Origin: Staphylococcus phage vB_Sau_P68
Sequence record: OL741057.1
DNA length: 64,000 nt
Strand: one strand, 5' to 3'
Position 1 is the stretch's first letter. Every line of letters begins with the position of its first letter. Both the position numbers and the translations under genes were made by a program. Below, one piece after another: positions 77 to 29,159 of the stretch. Below the pieces are notes generated by a model, which was given only the letters and a program-made list of their open reading frames with translations, made no database searches and was not told the DNA's origin.

Positions 77-106
77 TTGTATTTCCTCCTTTTTTTAACT
101 ACCTTA

Positions 107-135
107 ATAATATCATGGTAGGGCTTGGAAGTCAA
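107..135 (-). promoter_or_regulatory. sigma-A-like early promoter (minus: TTGACT-N17-TATTAT); its -35 sits inside the palindrome GGGCTTGGAAGTCAAGCCC (121-139)
   Basis: read directly from sequence; consensus hexamers with 17-nt spacer. Confidence 0.6.
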
Positions 136-149
136 GCCCTTTATTTAAT

Positions 150-413
150 TTATTTACAAATCACTGTGTAAGGTGTTTCTAGGTCTGCTTCTTCAATGCT
201 TGTTTCAAAGTTTTCCCATACGTTCTTGATTGCTTTGTTTTTAAAAGTTTCTACGTTCATTCCACTGTGACATGTGAACTGGCTTACCTTGACGATTCCT
301 TTACTTCTAAGTGCTATTTGTAGGGTAACAATCGTTTCTCCTAGGTTGCCTTGTCTGATTTCCTCTTGTGCGTGGTTTAAAGCTTGTGTGAATGTTTTTT
401 TCATAATTATCAA
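150..413 (-). CDS. hypothetical protein (87 aa)
   Basis: ORF track; RBS aaaggaga; promoter 437-465 upstream. Confidence 0.55.
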   Translation of the reverse strand: MIIMKKTFTQALNHAQEEIRQGNLGETIVTLQIALRSKGIVKVSQFTCHSGMNVETFKNKAIKNVWENFETSIEEADLETPYTVICK

Positions 414-1144: not shown

Positions 1145-1152
1145 TTTAAGTA

Positions 1153-1181
1153 TTGACAATAAGTAGCAAACATAGTATAAT
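1153..1181 (+). promoter_or_regulatory. plus-strand consensus promoter TTGACA-N17-TATAAT with no ORF downstream
   Basis: sequence. Confidence 0.55.
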
Positions 1182-1333
1182 TGAGATGAGTGGTTATTTT
1201 TTTTTAAAAAAGGACGGATTTGCCCCGAAACCCCTTCTTTGGTCTTGGGCTCCTTAACCTTATATCTATATTATACTATGGATTGAAAGAAATGTCAACA
1301 CTTTTTTATAAACTTTTTTAATTAATTTAAGTA

Positions 1334-1362
1334 TTGACAAGTGGGAGCAAAATTGATATAAT
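1334..1362 (+). promoter_or_regulatory. plus-strand consensus promoter TTGACA-N17-TATAAT with no ORF downstream
   Basis: sequence. Confidence 0.55.
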
Positions 1363-1486
1363 GGGGGTGGAGGGTATTTTTATCTATAATTTTTTTATAT
1401 AATATTATTTTTATACGAAAAAAAGTCATCACTTCATTATCTCATTTTTTCGTACATTTGTCAAGCACATATTCAAAAAGAAATAA

Positions 1487-1521
1487 CCGCTTCAAATTAT
1501 TAAATAAGAAGCGGTTTATAT
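1487..1521 (-). terminator. rho-independent terminator, probably bidirectional (AACCGCTTC...GAAGCGGTT hairpin with T-runs on both strands)
   Basis: sequence. Confidence 0.6.
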
Positions 1522-1528
1522 AATTTTT

Positions 1529-3020: not shown

Positions 3021-3091
3021 AATAAATCAATTCCTCTCATTTGGTATATATTAATAATAACATGCTAGGGCTTGAAAGTCAAGCCCTTTAT

Positions 3092-3520
3092 TTAATTAAT
3101 TTCTTTTATCCAATCTTTTTCAATTCTGTTATATACGCATTGCACTTCTTCCTTTAGTTGTGGTTTTTCAAATTCTGATTTTATTAAGTCCACTGTGTCA
3201 AATTCTTCTTCATCGGCAAAATAAGCTAAGTCTGAAAATGAGTAATAATCATGTGCAAAGTATTCAGATGTTGGAATTTCTAACGTTAAAGTTATCTCAT
3301 TTTTTAAAGAGCTTAATGATGTTATTTCTTCAATACGTCCCTCATTCTCTTTCATGTAATCATTTTCTAACATTCCAAAGAATAAACCTTTATAGCCAGT
3401 AATTTCTTTCAAATAATCGTAAGCATAATCTGAAAATGATGTATCATTTTTAGCGTAACAAACTCCCTCATTATTTATTATTTCTAAAACTTCATTCGAT
3501 ACTTTTGTTATAATTTTCAT
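3092..3520 (-). CDS. hypothetical acidic protein (142 aa)
   Basis: ORF track; two tandem TTGACA-N17-TATTAT promoters upstream at 3555-3690. Confidence 0.55.
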   Translation of the reverse strand: MKIITKVSNEVLEIINNEGVCYAKNDTSFSDYAYDYLKEITGYKGLFFGMLENDYMKENEGRIEEITSLSSLKNEITLTLEIPTSEYFAHDYYSFSDLAYFADEEEFDTVDLIKSEFEKPQLKEEVQCVYNRIEKDWIKEIN

Positions 3521-3686
3521 AATTAATCAATTCCTTTTCTGTTTGTTTTTGTTATCTTAATAATATCATGGTTTCAAGTTACTGTCAATAGTTTTTTTAA
3601 ACTTTTTTTATTTAGGTTGGAAGCGGTTGACCGCTTCCCTTACCTTGTATCTTAATAATAACATGTAGTGCTTAAGTTGTCAACAC

Positions 3687-3995
3687 TTATTTAAAACTTT
3701 CTATATAAGCATTTTCATCAAGTCCAACACGTGAATTAAAATCTTTTAAGTTTTCATATGTTGGATTTATCCAAATTCCATTCACTACATTTTCATGGTG
3801 TTCTTGCATTTCTTCAATAGTATCAAATATATCTAACCAATCCGTCAATTCATCTATAGTGTCATTTGTCACGTCACCTAGGTAATTGCTTTCTACAGTT
3901 AAATCTTTCATTAGGTTGTCTAATCCAATTGCTAATAATTCCGGACTTTCAAAACCACTGTAAGAGTAAAATTTCAAGTTTTGTACGTTTTTCAT
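3687..3995 (-). CDS. hypothetical protein (start at MKNVQ)
   Basis: ORF track; the RBS spacing favours the second ATG. Confidence 0.5.
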   Translation of the reverse strand: MKNVQNLKFYSYSGFESPELLAIGLDNLMKDLTVESNYLGDVTNDTIDELTDWLDIFDTIEEMQEHHENVVNGIWINPTYENLKDFNSRVGLDENAYIESFK

Positions 3996-4063
3996 TTGTA
4001 TCATTTCCTTTTTGTTTTATTTGTTATCTTAATAATATCATGGTTTCAAGTGACTGTCAAGCC

Positions 4064-4222
4064 TTATCTTAAAAAAATATTTATGTTATCTTGTAGTAGT
4101 AAAAACCAATTTACAAGCTTAGGCGTGATTGATGCAACTAAACCGCCTATAATAAGTAAAAGGATATTGTCCGTTTTTTGTGTTGATTTGATTGTTTTGT
4201 TTTTCCATTTAAATTTTAGCAT
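4064..4222 (-). CDS. small hydrophobic membrane protein (~52 aa: MLKFKWKNKTIKSTQKTDNILLLIIGGLVASITPKLVNWFLLL...)
   Basis: found by hand; GGGAGG RBS 8 nt before the ATG; TTGACT promoter at ~4255-4290; same strand as neighbours; replaces the plus-strand ORF 3981..4352 in the track. Confidence 0.4.
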   Translation of the reverse strand: MLKFKWKNKTIKSTQKTDNILLLIIGGLVASITPKLVNWFLLLQDNINIFLR

Positions 4223-4319
4223 TTGTGTTGCCTCCCTTGTTGGTATACCTATATATTACTATAAGAATAAACATAAGTCAATAGGTTTTTTAAATCTTTT
4301 TGAAAAAGTTAAAATAATA

Positions 4320-4345
4320 AAAAGCCCACATAATAGTAGGCTTTG
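4320..4345 (-). terminator. rho-independent terminator (AAAGCC...GGCTTT hairpin + T-run on the minus strand)
   Basis: sequence. Confidence 0.45.
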
Positions 4346-4348
4346 TGT

Positions 4349-4495
4349 TTAACTCCAATTTATAGCTTGTCTTTCTTTTTGTAGTTCAAGCAATCTCATT
4401 TGTAAAGAGCTTGCTTGTGCTTTACTGTTTTCATTATGTTTTATCATTTCTTTAACCTCAGTGATTTCTCTTTTTACTATTCTAATATCTCTCAT
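4349..4495 (-). CDS. small protein (~47 aa: MRDIRIVKREITEVKEMIKHNENSKAQASSLQMRLLELQKERQAINWS)
   Basis: found by hand; TTGACT promoter at ~4560-4590; terminator immediately downstream. Confidence 0.35.
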   Translation of the reverse strand: MRDIRIVKREITEVKEMIKHNENSKAQASSLQMRLLELQKERQAINWS

Positions 4496-6045: not shown

Positions 6046-6351
6046 TTAAATCAATTCCCTTCGTGTTATTTATTACACTACTAATATTAAAGGATAGCCG
6101 GCAATAAGTCAATAGATTTATGAAACTTTTTTAAAAAACTTTTAAAGCCCTTTTTTTGCTTTATATAGTAGAAACTGGAAATTAAGCAAAAAATAAATAG
6201 TATAATTTTTTTATATAAATCTATATATAAGACAGACAGACCCCTCCAATTATTATGATAAAGGATAAACACCGATTTGTCAAGCACCAATTTTACACTT
6301 TTTTAAATTGTCATAAAGTGTAAAACTTCTCATTTAATTTGCTAAAAAGTA

Positions 6352-6379
6352 TTGAAATTATATATCAATCTGCTATAAT
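6352..6379 (+). promoter_or_regulatory. plus-strand promoter TTGAAA-N16-TATAAT
   Basis: sequence. Confidence 0.55.
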
Positions 6380-6436
6380 AGTATTTGTAAGGTAATCAAA
6401 CGACCTTAACAACTAAACGAAAAGGATTGATATATA

Positions 6437-6721
6437 ATGATAATTTACAATGAGGACAACACGCAACTAATCGAATTTTTTGAAGGGCTTAACAATGGTA
6501 TGGCAATTAATCAAACGTTCCGAGGTCATTCTTATGAGTTCTATAAGGAAAACGGGAATATCCTAGTAAGACTTGAAGGTGAAACAATCGGTCACATGGT
6601 GCAAAGTGAGTACCGTCACACATATGAAAGCGTTCAATATGAAAATTGGGAAACTGAACAAGTTAGGGTAATTGAATGGTTGGATGAATTAGATGCCTAC
6701 GAATTTGAATACGAAGTATAA
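6437..6721 (+). CDS. hypothetical protein (94 aa), plus strand
   Basis: ORF track; RBS aaaagga; own promoter and own terminator. Confidence 0.55.
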   Translation: MIIYNEDNTQLIEFFEGLNNGMAINQTFRGHSYEFYKENGNILVRLEGETIGHMVQSEYRHTYESVQYENWETEQVRVIEWLDELDAYEFEYEV

Positions 6722-6740
6722 TATATAAAAAAATTATAGA

Positions 6741-6780
6741 AATCCCTGGGAATATAATTCCTGGGGATTCTTTTTGCGGT
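6741..6780 (+). terminator. rho-independent terminator (AATCCCTGGGAAT..ATTCCTGGGGATT + TTTTT)
   Basis: sequence. Confidence 0.55.
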
Positions 6781-6935
6781 CTGCTTGAAGCGGTTGGGAT
6801 AAACTAGGGGAATTCCTCCCTAGCTACTTGACCTTTTTTGACTTTTATAACAAGGTCTAATCCTAAGGTACTACTTATTGATTATTCTAATAGTATTAAT
6901 AACCATCTACTTAGACAATATCCGCTTCTGAATAA

Positions 6936-6963
6936 TTAACCTTATTAATAACCATCTACTTGT
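6936..6963. repeat. 28-nt direct repeat TTAACCTTATTAATAACCATCTACTTGT, copy 1 (partial copies at 6895-6915 and 7431-7465)
   Basis: exact match with 7349-7376. Confidence 0.8.
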
Positions 6964-7099
6964 CTTATTTACCCTATTATACACAATCAAATTACAAGGA
7001 GTAACTTAACCTATATAACATTTACATTAACTTTACAAATATGTAATACTACTGTAACCTAATTCTCATCTAATTCTCATAAACATATGATATAATCTA

Positions 7100-7405
7100 A
7101 ACAACAAAGTAATTAGTTGTTAGTAATTTATTACTGATAACTATTACAGGCGTTGCCTGGTTGTTGTAGCGTAGCGTTAAACAACAACTTGGCATAAGCT
7201 GTTTTGTTCTTAGCTTTTCTAAAAAGCTAAGTCGTACGCTAGTACGAAACAGTATCTATTACATTATATATAACATCCTAATAGATAAACAAATAAATAT
7301 TATATAAGATATAAGGGGCATACTCTGTTCAAATTGACAAGCAATTATTAACCTTATTAATAACCATCTACTTGTAACCTATACCTATTCAGTATAGGTA
7401 TTTTT
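7100..7405 (+). ncRNA. candidate ~300-nt structured non-coding RNA: extended -10 promoter TGaTATAAT at 7088-7096, three strong hairpins at 7160-7250, rho-independent terminator at 7376-7405
   Basis: no ORF with RBS; stems GTTGTTG/CAACAAC, CTTAGCTTTT/AAAAGCTAAG (10 bp), TCGTAC/GTACGA; terminator ATACCTAT..ATAGGTAT + TTTTTTATT. Confidence 0.35.
7349..7376. repeat. 28-nt direct repeat, copy 2
   Basis: exact match with 6936-6963. Confidence 0.8.
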
Positions 7406-7595
7406 TATTATTACTCAATATTATTACTCAGAATAATTAATCAATATTTGAGGTATCTACTTGTAAATATACTCAAAGTAACCTAAACCCTATCTCAAAA
7501 TACCTTAGTTTTATCTTAACATCTTAACCCTATCGCATCCTACGGTAAATCGGAACGTATCCTATTTGTTTTATCGTATTTTTAACCTAAATAAA

Positions 7596-7620
7596 TAACC
7601 GCTTCCTATCCCAAAGAAGC
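7596..7620 (-). terminator. rho-independent terminator (ACCGCTTC..GAAGCGGT hairpin; T-rich run follows on the minus strand)
   Basis: sequence. Confidence 0.55.
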
Positions 7621-7630
7621 GGTCATCATC

Positions 7631-7867
7631 CTATTCTATTGTAATATCAGGTAACGTCTTGTTATCCTTCGTAAGTTCATCTAAAGTTAAAGGTTTTCTA
7701 TATATTAAGAAGTTTTCTAGTAGCTCATCATAAGACTCGGAGTTACTATTTATACTCATAATATTATAACCTTCACCTTGACCAACTACTATACCAAAAT
7801 CCTCAATAACAGAGTTATAAACAATACAATTAATATCTATATCTGTCTTGTTAAACTTTAACTTCAT
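7631..7867 (-). CDS. hypothetical protein (78 aa)
   Basis: ORF track. Confidence 0.5.
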   Translation of the reverse strand: MKLKFNKTDIDINCIVYNSVIEDFGIVVGQGEGYNIMSINSNSESYDELLENFLIYRKPLTLDELTKDNKTLPDITIE

Positions 7868-9521: not shown

Positions 9522-9704
9522 CTATTCCTCCTTGTTACTACTTCTATAATCTACTATAGCAAATATTAAAGCAAATACGTAAGGTAACCAAAAGGTAAAG
9601 GGATTAATATCTCCTCCTGTAATTAAATTACCTACACAAACACCTATAAACCCTGCTACTAAATAAATTAAATAATACATAACAAATTCTAATACTTTAT
9701 TCAT
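9522..9704 (-). CDS. small membrane protein (60 aa, two hydrophobic segments)
   Basis: ORF track; RBS taggaggag. Confidence 0.45.
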   Translation of the reverse strand: MNKVLEFVMYYLIYLVAGFIGVCVGNLITGGDINPFTFWLPYVFALIFAIVDYRSSNKEE

Positions 9705-9733
9705 AATAACTCCTCCTATTAATTTATATATTA

Positions 9734-9762
9734 ATCATACCACACTACTTAGTATATGTCAA
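9734..9762 (-). promoter_or_regulatory. promoter for the paralog operon (minus: TTGACA-N17-TATGAT)
   Basis: sequence. Confidence 0.6.
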
Positions 9763-9769
9763 TAGATAA

Positions 9770-9800
9770 ATAAAAAAACACCCTAATTGCAGTTAGGGTG
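9770..9800 (-). terminator. rho-independent terminator (CACCCTAACTGCAATTAGGGTG + TTTTTTT on the minus strand)
   Basis: sequence. Confidence 0.65.
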
Positions 9801-9931
9801 CCGGCGTTTGGAACAAACCAAAATGACTCGACCTCAGTCTAAAAGGTCTGTAGGTTAATCACTCCTACTTACAATATACAATTGCTTATATACTCTAAGT
9901 AGGAGAAGCGGATAACCGCTTCAACTATTAA

Positions 9932-10609
9932 TTAGTAGCTAGTTTGAAACGCATCTACTGTAGGATAGTACTTTAATAATTTTCCATTATGTCTAGCTCT
10001 CTCAAATGCTTTACGAGCATATTCATTATCAAGAGGTTTTACCAAACCATGTACAGCTTGATAAGTATATCTAGTTCCTGTTGAATCTTCAAAGTGACCG
10101 TCAAGTGTTGCTTTAAGTACATTAAGGTTACGACCCTGAGTCCCGTCTATATACCAAAAAGTATATCCCATAGGTGAATCTTCCGCTTCTTCTTTACCAC
10201 AAAACACACCTTCCCTAACCTGGGCTTGAATAAGACTTAAGCTTGTGTGTTCTAGGAATAATAGTCTATCAGTTTCTAAGTTAAGTAAGTTATACTTATC
10301 ATGTACTTGGTGTTTAATAACTCTGTAAGTATACTTACCATTACCTGATTTTAAGGTAGTACCTTCCTTTACTCTATTTAAATAGTTAGCTAATACTTCT
10401 AAGGCTTCTGTTAGAGAGTCGTAGTTAGTAGGACTTAACTTACCTTCATTTGTATATAGAGCGTAAGCACCTCTTCTATCTTCAATAGTCATATCTTCGT
10501 TAACTTCTATTTCAGAAAATCCTGTTTTATTCTTCTCTACTATATTTAATTTATTTACTTGAATACCATTTTCATCTAGTACCATAATAAGTTGTTTTAA
10601 TAATTTCAT
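9932..10609 (-). CDS. hypothetical protein (225 aa)
   Basis: ORF track. Confidence 0.6.
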   Translation of the reverse strand: MKLLKQLIMVLDENGIQVNKLNIVEKNKTGFSEIEVNEDMTIEDRRGAYALYTNEGKLSPTNYDSLTEALEVLANYLNRVKEGTTLKSGNGKYTYRVIKHQVHDKYNLLNLETDRLLFLEHTSLSLIQAQVREGVFCGKEEAEDSPMGYTFWYIDGTQGRNLNVLKATLDGHFEDSTGTRYTYQAVHGLVKPLDNEYARKAFERARHNGKLLKYYPTVDAFQTSY

Positions 10610-11812: not shown

Positions 11813-12116
11813 TTATACAATATTATAGATTAACCCACCATTAGATAAGATTATTATATAATAACAATAGATTAAAGGTACATTAGCATAGATTAACAAG
11901 TGATTACTATAGTTTACCATTGTATAATAAATGAATATTATAACTATAGAATAAGTAGTTAGGGAAGTCGGTAGTAAGTAATAGGCTGAGTGGGAGAGGT
12001 AAAAAAATTCCCAGGTACTTAGTATTTACTTGTTTTAGTTTATTAGGTTAAGGTACTTGGTTTTACTTTATTAGGTTCTAGAATATTATTCTCTTCTCTC
12101 TAGTATACTACTATCT

Positions 12117-28825: not shown

Positions 28826-29159
28826 TTATTTATGGTAACTGGTTTTCTGAAACCAGTATAGTGAACATAAACAAACCTTACCACATCAACTGTTTCAGGG
28901 TTACACTATATAATATATCATAATTTCTGTTATAATTTCATAATATATAAATGTAATATAATTTTATTAACTACTTTGTATAAAATTTTAATATATTTTT
29001 TAACTAATTACGAAGCCTTTACCTAAAAGATATTTTAACTTTTCATAAATATAATTTCACAGAAACTAGAGTAAGTAGAAAAAACCTAACTAGTTTCTGT
29101 ATTAAAAACATTATGAAAACTTCTTATATACCGTATATTTATACCTAATTACTACATAT

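What the first reader, a model, noticed from the sequence alone, without database searches (positions are those of the whole stretch)
6722..7595. ~870-bp non-coding island with a candidate ~300-nt structured plus-strand RNA
No ORF with an RBS lies between the terminator of the plus-strand gene 6437..6721 and the terminator of the minus operon ending at 7631. An extended -10 promoter (TGaTATAAT, 7088-7096) is followed by a GC-richer block holding three strong hairpins: GTTGTTG..CAACAAC at 7160-7188, the 10-bp stem CTTAGCTTTT/AAAAGCTAAG at 7210-7232, and TCGTAC..GTACGA at 7233-7248. A good rho-independent terminator follows at 7376-7405 (ATACCTAT tcagt ATAGGTAT TTTTTTATT). This is the only place in the window where the sequence behaves like a dedicated non-coding gene. 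It could equally be an origin of replication, a pac site or a terminal-repeat boundary.
Basis: partly seen in the sequence, partly recalled or inferred. Interest (0 to 1): 0.6.

Follow-up and report, generated by a model that had tools for sequence, protein, structure and literature searches.

The report
Candidate small RNA gene in phage repeat
The largest gene-free stretch of this Staphylococcus phage sequence very probably holds a self-contained gene for a roughly 300-base folded RNA of unknown function, shared by two phage genera, matching no catalogued RNA family and not yet shown to be expressed.

Summary
Window 6722-7630 is the largest ORF-free gap in the 64 kb (909 nt). It lies inside the long terminal repeat (LTR) of a Kayvirus-like Staphylococcus phage.

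A core at 7044-7353 is 77-80% identical in 46 Silviavirus-type records and at least 90% identical in 11 Kayvirus-like records (JDYN/HN01/O1-102 group). Classic phage K lacks it.

The core carries an invariant TATGnTATAAT promoter (7086-7096), in which only the free base varies. Four plus-strand hairpins follow (7109-7247), then an AT-rich spacer, two small conserved hairpins, and an intrinsic terminator (7377-7406).

Between the two lineages almost every change in the hairpins keeps pairing:
- three compensatory pairs, one in each of three helices;
- a matched 3-nt deletion on both arms of one stem;
- G-U/A-U switches.

In all 15 homologs the plus strand folds 4-14 kcal/mol better than the minus strand. 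This 160-nt stretch is also the best GC-corrected fold in the whole window.

No small ORF is conserved and no Rfam family matches. It is not a terminal-repeat boundary, which lies at about 12011. It is not an ssoA origin, a CRISPR-repeat mimic or a type I toxin locus.

Best reading: an accessory, early, sigma-A-transcribed non-coding RNA cassette. Expression and function are untested.

The parts
6741..6769 (+). Intrinsic terminator of the plus-strand gene 6437-6721. It marks the left edge of the island (context).
   Evidence: Terminator scan: 13-pair stem followed by CTTTTT.
6894..6913 (+). Copy 1 of the 20-mer direct repeat TATTAATAACCATCTACTT(A/G).
   Evidence: Three copies in the island and none elsewhere in the 64 kb; 0.01 expected. 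Part of repeat family D1.
6943..6962 (+). Copy 2 of the 20-mer. It lies inside the 33-nt repeat 6931-6963, which is 97% identical to 7343-7375.
7021..7050 (+). Candidate upstream promoter P1 (TTTACA-18-AATACT, preceded by TATG). Silviavirus has TTGTAA-17-TATAAT at the aligned place.
   Evidence: Promoter scan; Romulus sequence; alignment A1.
7061..7080 (+). Tandem AATTCTCAT(CT)AATTCTCAT repeat, occupying the place where P2 would have a -35. Invariant in the 10 aligned homologs and found as an exact anchor in all 15. Possibly a regulator site.
   Evidence: Unique in the window; invariant in A1; exact anchor found in all 15.
7086..7096 (+). Promoter P2: TATGaTATAAT, i.e. a -16 TRTG motif plus a consensus -10. 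Only the free base (A/T) varies between lineages.
7103..7406 (+). Predicted primary transcript, about 300 nt. The start is inferred as 7 nt after the -10; the end is at the T-run.
   Evidence: Inferred from promoter and terminator. Fold z-score -5.6.
7109..7147 (+). Hairpin H0 (15 pairs, including an invariant G-U).
   Evidence: RNAalifold on A2. A-U to U-A compensatory change at 7126/7131 in 5 of 15 sequences; U-G/U-A switch at 7121/7136.
7149..7200 (+). Hairpin H1. Outer stem GGC/GCU, main stem 7154-7167/7181-7194, and an apical loop carrying TAGCGTAGCGT (7167-7177).
   Evidence: G-C to A-U compensatory change. Matched 3-nt deletions on both arms in Silviavirus. HN01's TG-to-AA change repairs two weak pairs. 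U-A/U-G switch.
7209..7231 (+). Hairpin H2 (10-pair stem, 3-nt loop).
   Evidence: G-C to U-A compensatory change between lineages. Inverted repeat I20.
7232..7247 (+). Hairpin H3 (6 pairs). The stem is invariant and the loop varies (GCUA vs GGUUA).
7253..7315 (+). AT-rich, poorly conserved spacer with indels between lineages.
   Evidence: Alignments A1/A3.
7316..7346 (+). Two small conserved hairpins: H4 GGGCA/UGUUC (7316-7330) and H5 AAUUG/CAAUU (7332-7346).
   Evidence: RNAalifold on A3. H4 shows G-C/G-U/A-U variation. H5 has invariant stems and variable loops.
7355..7374 (+). Copy 3 of the 20-mer direct repeat, just upstream of the terminator.
7377..7406 (+). Plus-strand intrinsic terminator: ACCTATAC..GTATAGGT followed by a T-run. 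Conserved in the Kayvirus-like lineage. Silviavirus has an unrelated hairpin at the equivalent place.
7594..7627 (-). Terminator of the converging minus-strand Tre operon. It marks the right edge of the island (context).

Best explanation
The island holds a self-contained, accessory gene for a non-coding RNA on the plus strand.

Proposed sequence of events:
1. Host sigma-A RNA polymerase starts at the TATGnTATAAT promoter (7086-7096), and probably also at a second promoter about 46 nt upstream.
2. It transcribes a tightly folded 5' domain of four hairpins (7109-7247), an AT-rich linker and two small hairpins.
3. It stops at the intrinsic terminator at 7377-7406, giving an RNA of about 300 nt.

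The gene lies in the long terminal repeat, among the terminal-repeat ('Tre') genes that phage K transcribes within 2 minutes. I therefore infer that it is made at once on infection. It would then act in trans during host takeover, as a regulator or as a protein-binding decoy.

What is shown here (in silico): the promoter, the conserved and co-varying structure, the strand, the terminator, the lack of a conserved ORF, and the cassette-like distribution.

What is inferred: that it is transcribed, when, and what it does.
For: Conservation of the core
- Core 7044-7353 is conserved at 77-80% in 46 Silviavirus-type records and at 90% or more in 11 Kayvirus-like records, while the flanks are unrelated.
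- Within the close group, identity peaks at 98-100% over 7051-7300 and falls to 60-85% on either side.

Structure
- P2 is invariant apart from its free base.
- The consensus structure has 49 pairs, with 99.1% of cells paired.
- Three pairs carry changes on both sides, one in each of helices H0, H1 and H2. There is also a matched 3-nt indel.
- No shuffle out of 500 reaches the observed covariation score, and versions of the structure with the 3' partners slid by 1-3 columns collapse to 31-61% paired.

Strand
- Three G-U pairs in the 5' domain are invariant and two more pairs are G-U in some sequences (a further G-U sits in H4). Only one A-C cell is seen.
- The plus-strand MFE beats the minus strand in 15 of 15 homologs. 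The alifold energy is -45.1 against -35.4 kcal/mol.

Other
- It is the best GC-corrected fold of 6,386 windows.
- A dedicated plus-strand terminator is conserved in the window's lineage.
- No conserved ORF.
- In Silviavirus records that carry both terminal repeats the element occurs twice, so it is LTR-borne there too.
- Phage K LTR genes are the earliest transcripts, and sncRNAs have been reported in its LTR (PMC9241854; PMC11598898).
- SapYZU04 is Silviavirus-like on the left of the gene and Kayvirus-like on the right. The cassette therefore moves by recombination.
Against: - There are no expression data for any phage that carries it.
- Only two deep lineages exist (11 distinct sequences), so each covariation is essentially a single event. 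The shuffle control can be exceeded by related sequences that have no structure.
- P2 has no -35.
- The Silviavirus terminator has a poor U-tract on the plus strand.
- No antisense target above chance was found in the 64 kb.
- No Rfam family or known sRNA matches, so the function is a guess.
Confidence: 0.6

Rival explanations
1. It is a cis-acting transcription-control region, not a trans-acting RNA. The hairpins and promoters would insulate the two converging early transcription units, or would be the orphaned leader of a plus-strand gene that has since been lost.
For: The island lies between converging units and has terminator-like sites on both strands. Another intergenic stretch of the LTR (9700-9985, minus strand) folds almost as well and is plainly a terminator/promoter cluster. 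No target was found.
Against: H0-H3 lack U-tracts, and proper terminators already flank the island. The promoter plus structured block is kept across genera while the neighbouring genes on both sides differ. No downstream plus-strand ORF exists in either lineage.
Confidence: 0.17
2. It is a DNA-level replication element. One form is a transcription-primed origin (promoter plus AT-rich unwinding region, as in T7 or T4 ori(uvsY)). The other is a single-strand priming signal like the ssoA of staphylococcal rolling-circle plasmids.
For: The H1 loop carries TAGCGT twice, invariant in all homologs. TAGCGT is the CS-6 motif of ssoA (PMC4598088). The fold is strand-specific. A 20-mer direct repeat occurs three times, and only here. 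A promoter is followed by an AT-rich stretch.
Against: The ssoA RS_B motif is absent (0 matches at up to 3 mismatches). Covariance model R1, built from the 15 homologs, does not find pT181 or pE194 palA (5.2 bits, E about 4). The element is missing from phage K-type relatives, which replicate without it. The origin proposed for phage K is between gp190 and gp191 (PMC11598898). The 20-mers are not repeated in Silviavirus.
Confidence: 0.07
3. It encodes a very small protein, or a type I toxin with an antisense RNA.
For: Short ORFs exist: 7097-7195 minus (32 aa) and 7259-7321 minus (20 aa, hydrophobic).
Against: In Silviavirus the first loses its ATG (GGCAT becomes GGTAT) and the second stops after 5 codons. 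Neither has a Shine-Dalgarno sequence. Indels of 1 nt occur within the block.
Confidence: 0.02
4. It is a packaging site or the boundary of the terminal repeat.
For: The island is in the terminal region and is rich in short repeats.
Against: The boundary motif TAAGTACCTGGG and homology to phage K position 1 are at window 12010-12021. The island is 4.4-5.3 kb inside the repeat. In Silviavirus records with both terminal repeats the element lies 2-4.7 kb from the record start.
Confidence: 0.01

Closest known systems
Non-coding RNAs reported by RNA-seq in phage K (snc001-003 in the LTR, lnc001/002) (PMC9241854)
   Same: Same phage subfamily. Non-coding transcripts from early sigma-A-type promoters, three of them inside the LTR. 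Function unknown.
   Different: There is no sequence or structure homology. Phage K lacks the element, and K carries gp008 at the equivalent slot. The K sncRNAs were called by prediction plus read coverage, not by conserved structure.
Classical stand-alone phage sRNA genes (lambda OOP, P22 Sar, Pseudomonas phage PAK_P3 early sRNAs), recalled from general knowledge
   Same: A short gene with its own promoter and intrinsic terminator and no ORF.
   Different: Those known examples are antisense to a neighbouring gene or have mapped targets. This one overlaps no gene and has no detectable target in the window. At about 300 nt with a four-hairpin domain, it is also larger.
ssoA (palA) single-strand origins of staphylococcal rolling-circle plasmids
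   Same: About 150 nt of strand-specific hairpins, with TAGCGT (CS-6) in a terminal loop, in a Staphylococcus replicon.
   Different: No RS_B. No model match to pT181/pE194 palA. It sits in a dsDNA phage LTR, preceded by a normal duplex promoter and followed by a terminator.
Rfam families (4,227 models, including Staphylococcus Rsa/Spr/Teg sRNAs, phi29 pRNA, ROOL/GOLLD)
   Same: None reaches threshold.
   Different: The best hit is rli28 at 24 bits against a cut-off of 45. It aligns mainly the promoter TATGnTATAAT and is not reproduced in Romulus.

Membership tests
Stand-alone bacterial/phage sRNA gene | Own promoter on the strand of the RNA | tested here: met
   TATGnTATAAT at 7086-7096 is invariant in the 10 sequences aligned over it, and only n varies. 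There is no -35. Sequence evidence only.
Stand-alone bacterial/phage sRNA gene | Intrinsic terminator on the same strand | tested here: met
   7377-7399 plus a T-run, conserved in the Kayvirus-like lineage. In Silviavirus a different hairpin with a weak U-tract takes its place.
Stand-alone bacterial/phage sRNA gene | No conserved ORF | tested here: met
   Starts and stops are not conserved.
Stand-alone bacterial/phage sRNA gene | Conserved secondary structure with compensatory change | tested here: met
   99.1% of cells paired, 3 compensatory pairs plus a paired indel, and 0 of 500 shuffles reach the score. Only two deep lineages.
Stand-alone bacterial/phage sRNA gene | A discrete transcript is made | not testable with these tools
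   The papers searched and read yielded no transcriptome for a carrier phage.
Stand-alone bacterial/phage sRNA gene | A base-pairing target | tested here: inconclusive
   25 perfect 12-mers, 6 of them self-matches to the 20-mer repeat, leaving 19, against a shuffle mean of 11.7 and maximum of 23. Only 64 kb of phage was searched and no host genome.
Any Rfam 15 family | Score at or above the family's gathering threshold | tested here: not met
   0 hits in the window. Best sub-threshold hit is 24.1 bits against 45.
ssoA-type single-strand origin | CS-6 (TAGCGT/A) in a terminal hairpin loop | tested here: met
   TAGCGTAGCGT at 7167-7177 at the apex of H1, invariant. Motif definition from PMC4598088.
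ssoA-type single-strand origin | RS_B (TTATGCCGAGAAAAYTT) at the base of the structure | tested here: not met
   0 matches at up to 3 mismatches in the window. pT181 and pE194 both carry it with 1 mismatch.
ssoA-type single-strand origin | Similarity to known palA elements | tested here: not met
   Model R1 on pT181/pE194: the palA region scores 5.2 bits, E about 4. No staphylococcal plasmid hit by blastn.
Phage K LTR sncRNAs / lncRNAs | Homologous sequence or structure in phage K | tested here: not met
   R1 finds nothing in the first 10 kb of phage K, which covers the whole 8,486-bp LTR. A distant blastn finds only 57 carrier records, none K-type.
Replication origin | Present in all close relatives (essential cis element) | tested here: not met
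   Absent from phage K-type Kayvirus genomes.
Replication origin | Iterons plus an AT-rich unwinding region | tested here: inconclusive
   A 20-mer occurs three times, and only here, and an AT-rich stretch lies at 7253-7315. The repeats are not kept in Silviavirus.
Terminal-repeat boundary / pac site | Coincides with the end of the LTR | tested here: not met
   The boundary is at window 12010-12021.
Type I toxin-antitoxin | Conserved small hydrophobic ORF with an overlapping antisense RNA | tested here: not met
   The 20-aa ORF at 7259-7321 (minus) stops after 5 codons in Silviavirus.
RNA anti-CRISPR (solitary repeat mimic) | Similarity to a host CRISPR repeat | tested here: not met
   Local alignments to S. 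aureus II-A and S. epidermidis III-A repeats (sequences recalled from memory) score at the shuffle mean.

The most novel reading that the evidence does not exclude
The RNA is a mobile, accessory host-takeover or anti-defence effector. In this reading, a structured decoy RNA is made from both terminal repeats in the first minutes of infection. It would sequester or mislead a host protein such as a nuclease, an RNA-sensing immune protein or RNA polymerase. It would be traded between Silviavirus and Kayvirus-like phages as a promoter-to-terminator cassette, and so contribute to host range.
Probability: 0.15. Interest if true: 0.7.

Novelty: new member of a known kind. Interest (0 to 1): 0.45.

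Why it matters
Kayvirus and Silviavirus phages are the main candidates for therapy against Staphylococcus aureus. Their terminal repeats hold the least understood, earliest expressed genes. A conserved, unannotated RNA gene there would be a new player in host takeover. It is present in one set of therapeutic phages and absent from phage K-type ones. That also makes it a possible determinant of differences in host range or efficacy.

It is also a clean test case. The cassette is short and bounded by a promoter and a terminator. Natural 'with' and 'without' relatives exist, as does a natural chimera (SapYZU04). If the RNA is not expressed, the conserved hairpins would instead point to an unknown DNA-level signal.

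Tried and rejected
- Rfam. Gathering and relaxed thresholds, on both the window and Romulus, gave nothing. The rli28 hit is just the promoter.
- tRNA/tmRNA. None in the window.
- More distant homologs. Exact-pattern scans for the H1 hairpin in viral, genome and metagenome collections returned only SA11 and chance hits. One is a marine Alteromonas contig at 32 bits with model R1, but it had been pre-selected by the exact 19-mer.
- Other collections. A plasmid blastn gave no staphylococcal hit. R1 found no paralog in the window, in phage K (first 10 kb, covering the LTR) or in phage CF5.
- ssoA idea. Prompted by TAGCGT occurring twice in the H1 loop. RS_B is absent and there is no model match to pT181/pE194 palA.
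- CRISPR-repeat mimic. At shuffle level.
- Type I toxin or small protein. The ORFs are not conserved.
- Terminal boundary. It lies at about 12011.
- Phage K putative ori repeat. Not in the window.
- Antisense targets in the window. At chance level.
- The 33-nt match in K-type phages (for example SA3). It is merely a similar promoter upstream of a protein gene.
- The 'second place' per Silviavirus record. It is the palindromic H2 hitting itself.
- Flanking proteins (94, 78, 82, 102 and 67 aa). No informative Pfam or PHROG function.
- Literature. No transcriptome of a carrier phage and no description of this element was found.

Full report
**Where the window comes from**

Megablast of 6300-7800 hits only Staphylococcus Herelleviridae (Twortvirinae). 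The closest are HN01, JDYN and LSA2302 at 88-90% over the whole query, and O1-102 at 97% over two thirds of it.

The window runs in the opposite direction to the phage K reference. The motif TAAGTACCTGGG sits at 12010-12021 on the minus strand, and homology to phage K position 1 ends at 12011. The island therefore lies 4.4-5.3 kb inside the long terminal repeat (LTR). On one side is a plus-strand gene of unknown function (6437-6721). On the other is a minus-strand run of terminal-repeat ('Tre') genes ending at 7631.

**Checking the observation**

Window 6722-7630 is the largest stretch of the 64 kb without an ORF of 50 aa or more (909 nt). The scan finds the flanking terminators and four further terminator-like sites (two of them hairpins inside the RNA body), 6 in all against 0.4 expected.

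Two hairpin coordinates are off by one base, and a fourth hairpin (7109-7147) was missed.

The folding is far from chance:
- The z-score is -6.3 for 7097-7256 and -5.6 for 7103-7405 on the plus strand.
- Among 6,386 windows of 160 nt on both strands, corrected for GC content, the one starting at 7101 on the plus strand is the most stable (-4.8 sd).

**Comparative evidence**

A sensitive blastn of 7040-7420 finds 57 phage records, all from Staphylococcus Twortvirinae:
- 11 records are at 90% identity or more: the JDYN/HN01/O1-102/PALS_1/LSA2302/OPT-SC01/SapYZU04 group.
- 46 Silviavirus-type records (Romulus, Remus, SA11, Stau2 and others) are at 77-80%.

Homology to Silviavirus starts sharply at 7044 and ends at about 7353. 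Both flanks, and the neighbouring genes, are unrelated. Silviavirus records that include both terminal repeats carry the element twice, so it is LTR-borne there as well.

Classic phage K lacks the element. Neither blastn nor covariance model R1 (built from the 15 homologs) finds it in phage K. K has the protein gene gp008 at the corresponding slot.

SapYZU04 resembles Silviavirus to the left of the gene and the Kayvirus-like group to the right. The unit thus behaves as an accessory cassette exchanged by recombination.

Within the close group, identity is 98-100% over 7051-7300 and drops to 60-85% on each side.

**Anatomy**

1. Promoter P2, TATGaTATAAT (7086-7096), is invariant, and only the unconstrained base differs (A or T). 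It has no -35. A tandem AATTCTCAT repeat occupies that place.
2. A second candidate promoter, P1, lies at 7021-7050. At the aligned place Silviavirus has the better match TTGTAA-17-TATAAT.
3. The 5' domain has four hairpins: H0 7109-7147, H1 7149-7200, H2 7209-7231 and H3 7232-7247.
4. An AT-rich, poorly conserved spacer follows (7253-7315).
5. Two small conserved hairpins come next (7316-7330 and 7332-7346).
6. A plus-strand terminator closes the unit (7377-7406). It is conserved in the window's lineage. Silviavirus has an unrelated hairpin at the same relative place, with a proper T-run only on the other strand.

**Is the structure under selection, and on which strand?**

RNAalifold on 15 homologs (11 distinct sequences) gives 49 pairs, with 99.1% of cells paired.
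- Three pairs carry changes on both sides, one each in H0, H1 and H2.
- H1 also has matched 3-nt deletions on both arms in Silviavirus.
- In HN01 a TG-to-AA change turns a U-U mismatch and a G-U pair into A-U pairs.
- Loops and linkers take the remaining changes.
- No shuffle out of 500 reaches the observed covariation score or the percentage paired. Sliding the 3' partners by 1-3 columns drops pairing to 31-61%.

The caveat is that there are only two deep lineages, so each covariation is in effect one event.

The strand evidence is consistent:
- Three G-U pairs in the 5' domain are invariant, and two more pairs switch between G-U and A-U. H4 adds a further invariant G-U. On the minus strand these would be C-A mismatches. 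Only a single A-C cell is seen on the plus strand.
- The plus strand folds 4-14 kcal/mol better in all 15 homologs.
- The consensus energy is -45.1 against -35.4 kcal/mol.

This agrees with the direction of the conserved promoter and terminator.

**Coding potential**

The only ORFs are 20-33 aa. The 32-aa minus-strand ORF loses its ATG in Silviavirus. The hydrophobic 20-aa ORF stops after five codons there. One-base indels occur inside the block. Neither has a ribosome-binding site.

**What it is not**

- *A known RNA family.* No Rfam family matches at any useful score. The best hit, rli28, aligns mainly the promoter and does not recur in Romulus.
- *A terminal-repeat boundary or pac site.* See the boundary mapping above.
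- *An ssoA origin.* I noticed that the H1 loop reads TAGCGTAGCGT, two copies of the CS-6 motif found in ssoA single-strand origins of staphylococcal plasmids (PMC4598088, PMC5703833). I tested that lead. The second ssoA signature, RS_B, is absent, although pT181 and pE194 both carry it. Model R1 does not detect their palA regions. It is therefore not an ssoA, and the motif stays unexplained.
- *An essential replication origin.* Phage K-type relatives lack the element, and the origin proposed for phage K lies between gp190 and gp191 (PMC11598898). That repeat is not in the window.
- *A CRISPR-repeat mimic.* Similarity is at shuffle level.
- *An RNA with an obvious in-window target.* No antisense target in the window stands out from chance.

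**Best explanation**

The island most likely holds a self-contained, accessory, LTR-borne gene for a plus-strand non-coding RNA of about 300 nt. It would be transcribed by host sigma-A RNA polymerase.

It is probably among the first transcripts of infection. Phage K LTR units peak within 2 min, and phage K also yields LTR sncRNAs, although these are not homologous (PMC9241854; PMC11598898).

Its mode of action is unknown. I favour a trans-acting role in host takeover, as a regulator or a protein decoy. My reasons are that the cassette is accessory, mobile between genera, and independent of its neighbours.

I put about 0.6 on 'transcribed plus-strand ncRNA gene', and much less on any particular mechanism.

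**Novelty**

The kind of element, a phage-encoded sRNA gene, is known. This family appears to be undescribed. It is not in Rfam. It is annotated in no record inspected, apart from spurious short CDS in V1SA20 and DELF3 and minus-strand MEME promoters in Romulus. The papers searched do not mention it.

Noticed in passing
window 12010-12021 (minus strand) and 11819-12011: The LTR boundary motif TAAGTACCTGGG and the start of homology to phage K position 1. The sequence continues past it without a break, so the source record seems to hold a collapsed or internal copy of the repeat rather than a physical end. No second copy of the inverted boundary motif is found in the window.
   Followed up: partly
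window 7167-7177: The apical loop of hairpin H1 reads TAGCGTAGCGT. These are two overlapping copies of the ssoA CS-6 hexamer, invariant in all 15 homologs. The element fails the other ssoA criteria, so the motif is unexplained.
   Followed up: yes
window 6894-6913, 6943-6962, 7355-7374 (33-nt versions 6931-6963 and 7343-7375): The 20-mer TATTAATAACCATCTACTTG occurs three times in direct orientation, only in this island, and brackets the RNA gene core. The two 33-nt copies are 97% identical in the window and O1-102, but the right copy has diverged in HN01/JDYN. Silviavirus does not repeat it. It could be a protein-binding site or a recombination scar.
   Followed up: partly
window 9700-9985, minus strand: The second most stably folded region of the window (z -5.3). 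It contains two terminator-like hairpins, a long AU-rich hairpin, then a TTGACA/TATGAT promoter and a ribosome-binding site. It looks like an intergenic terminator/promoter cluster within the Tre operon.
   Followed up: partly
window 104-155, 2203-2254 and 3051-3102: Three copies of a 52-bp sequence matching phage K 6670-6721 (the end of gp016 and just beyond). The middle copy (about 2203-2254) lies at the start of a longer 559-nt block, 2203-2761, homologous to K 6163-6721. Several duplicated segments of the gp015-gp016 region also occur. The right part of this LTR is rearranged and expanded relative to phage K.
   Followed up: no
L007 (SapYZU04, OP432864.1) 1447-1870: A natural chimera. Upstream of the RNA gene and in H0-H2 it carries Silviavirus-type bases. 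From H3 onwards it is Kayvirus-like. The recombination junction therefore lies inside the RNA gene.
   Followed up: partly
L028 (phage CF5, PP034390.1) 3638-4368: This distant S. warneri phage has a 54%-identical homolog of the 78-aa gene (window 7631-7867). It is followed by a 730-bp ORF-free gap that holds no homolog of the RNA (best R1 score 11 bits) but does contain a GC-richer stretch. A different non-coding element may occupy the same slot.
   Followed up: partly
window 7631-7867 (minus strand): By tblastn the 78-aa protein next to the island is found only in 10 of the 11 Kayvirus-like carriers of the RNA (LSA2311, the 11th, was not returned) plus CF5. Silviavirus lacks it. No Pfam or PHROG family matches.
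   Followed up: partly
window 1145-1528 and 28826-29159: Two other ORF-free gaps of more than 300 nt (384 and 334 nt). The window starting at 29021 on the minus strand also ranks among the better folds (-3.1 sd).
   Followed up: no
L025 (Alteromonas contig NZ_JBAHZB010000239.1) 694-818: Model R1 scores 32 bits here. The locus was pre-selected for an exact 19-nt match to the H1 hairpin, has 46% GC and comes from a marine gammaproteobacterium. I treated it as chance.
   Followed up: no
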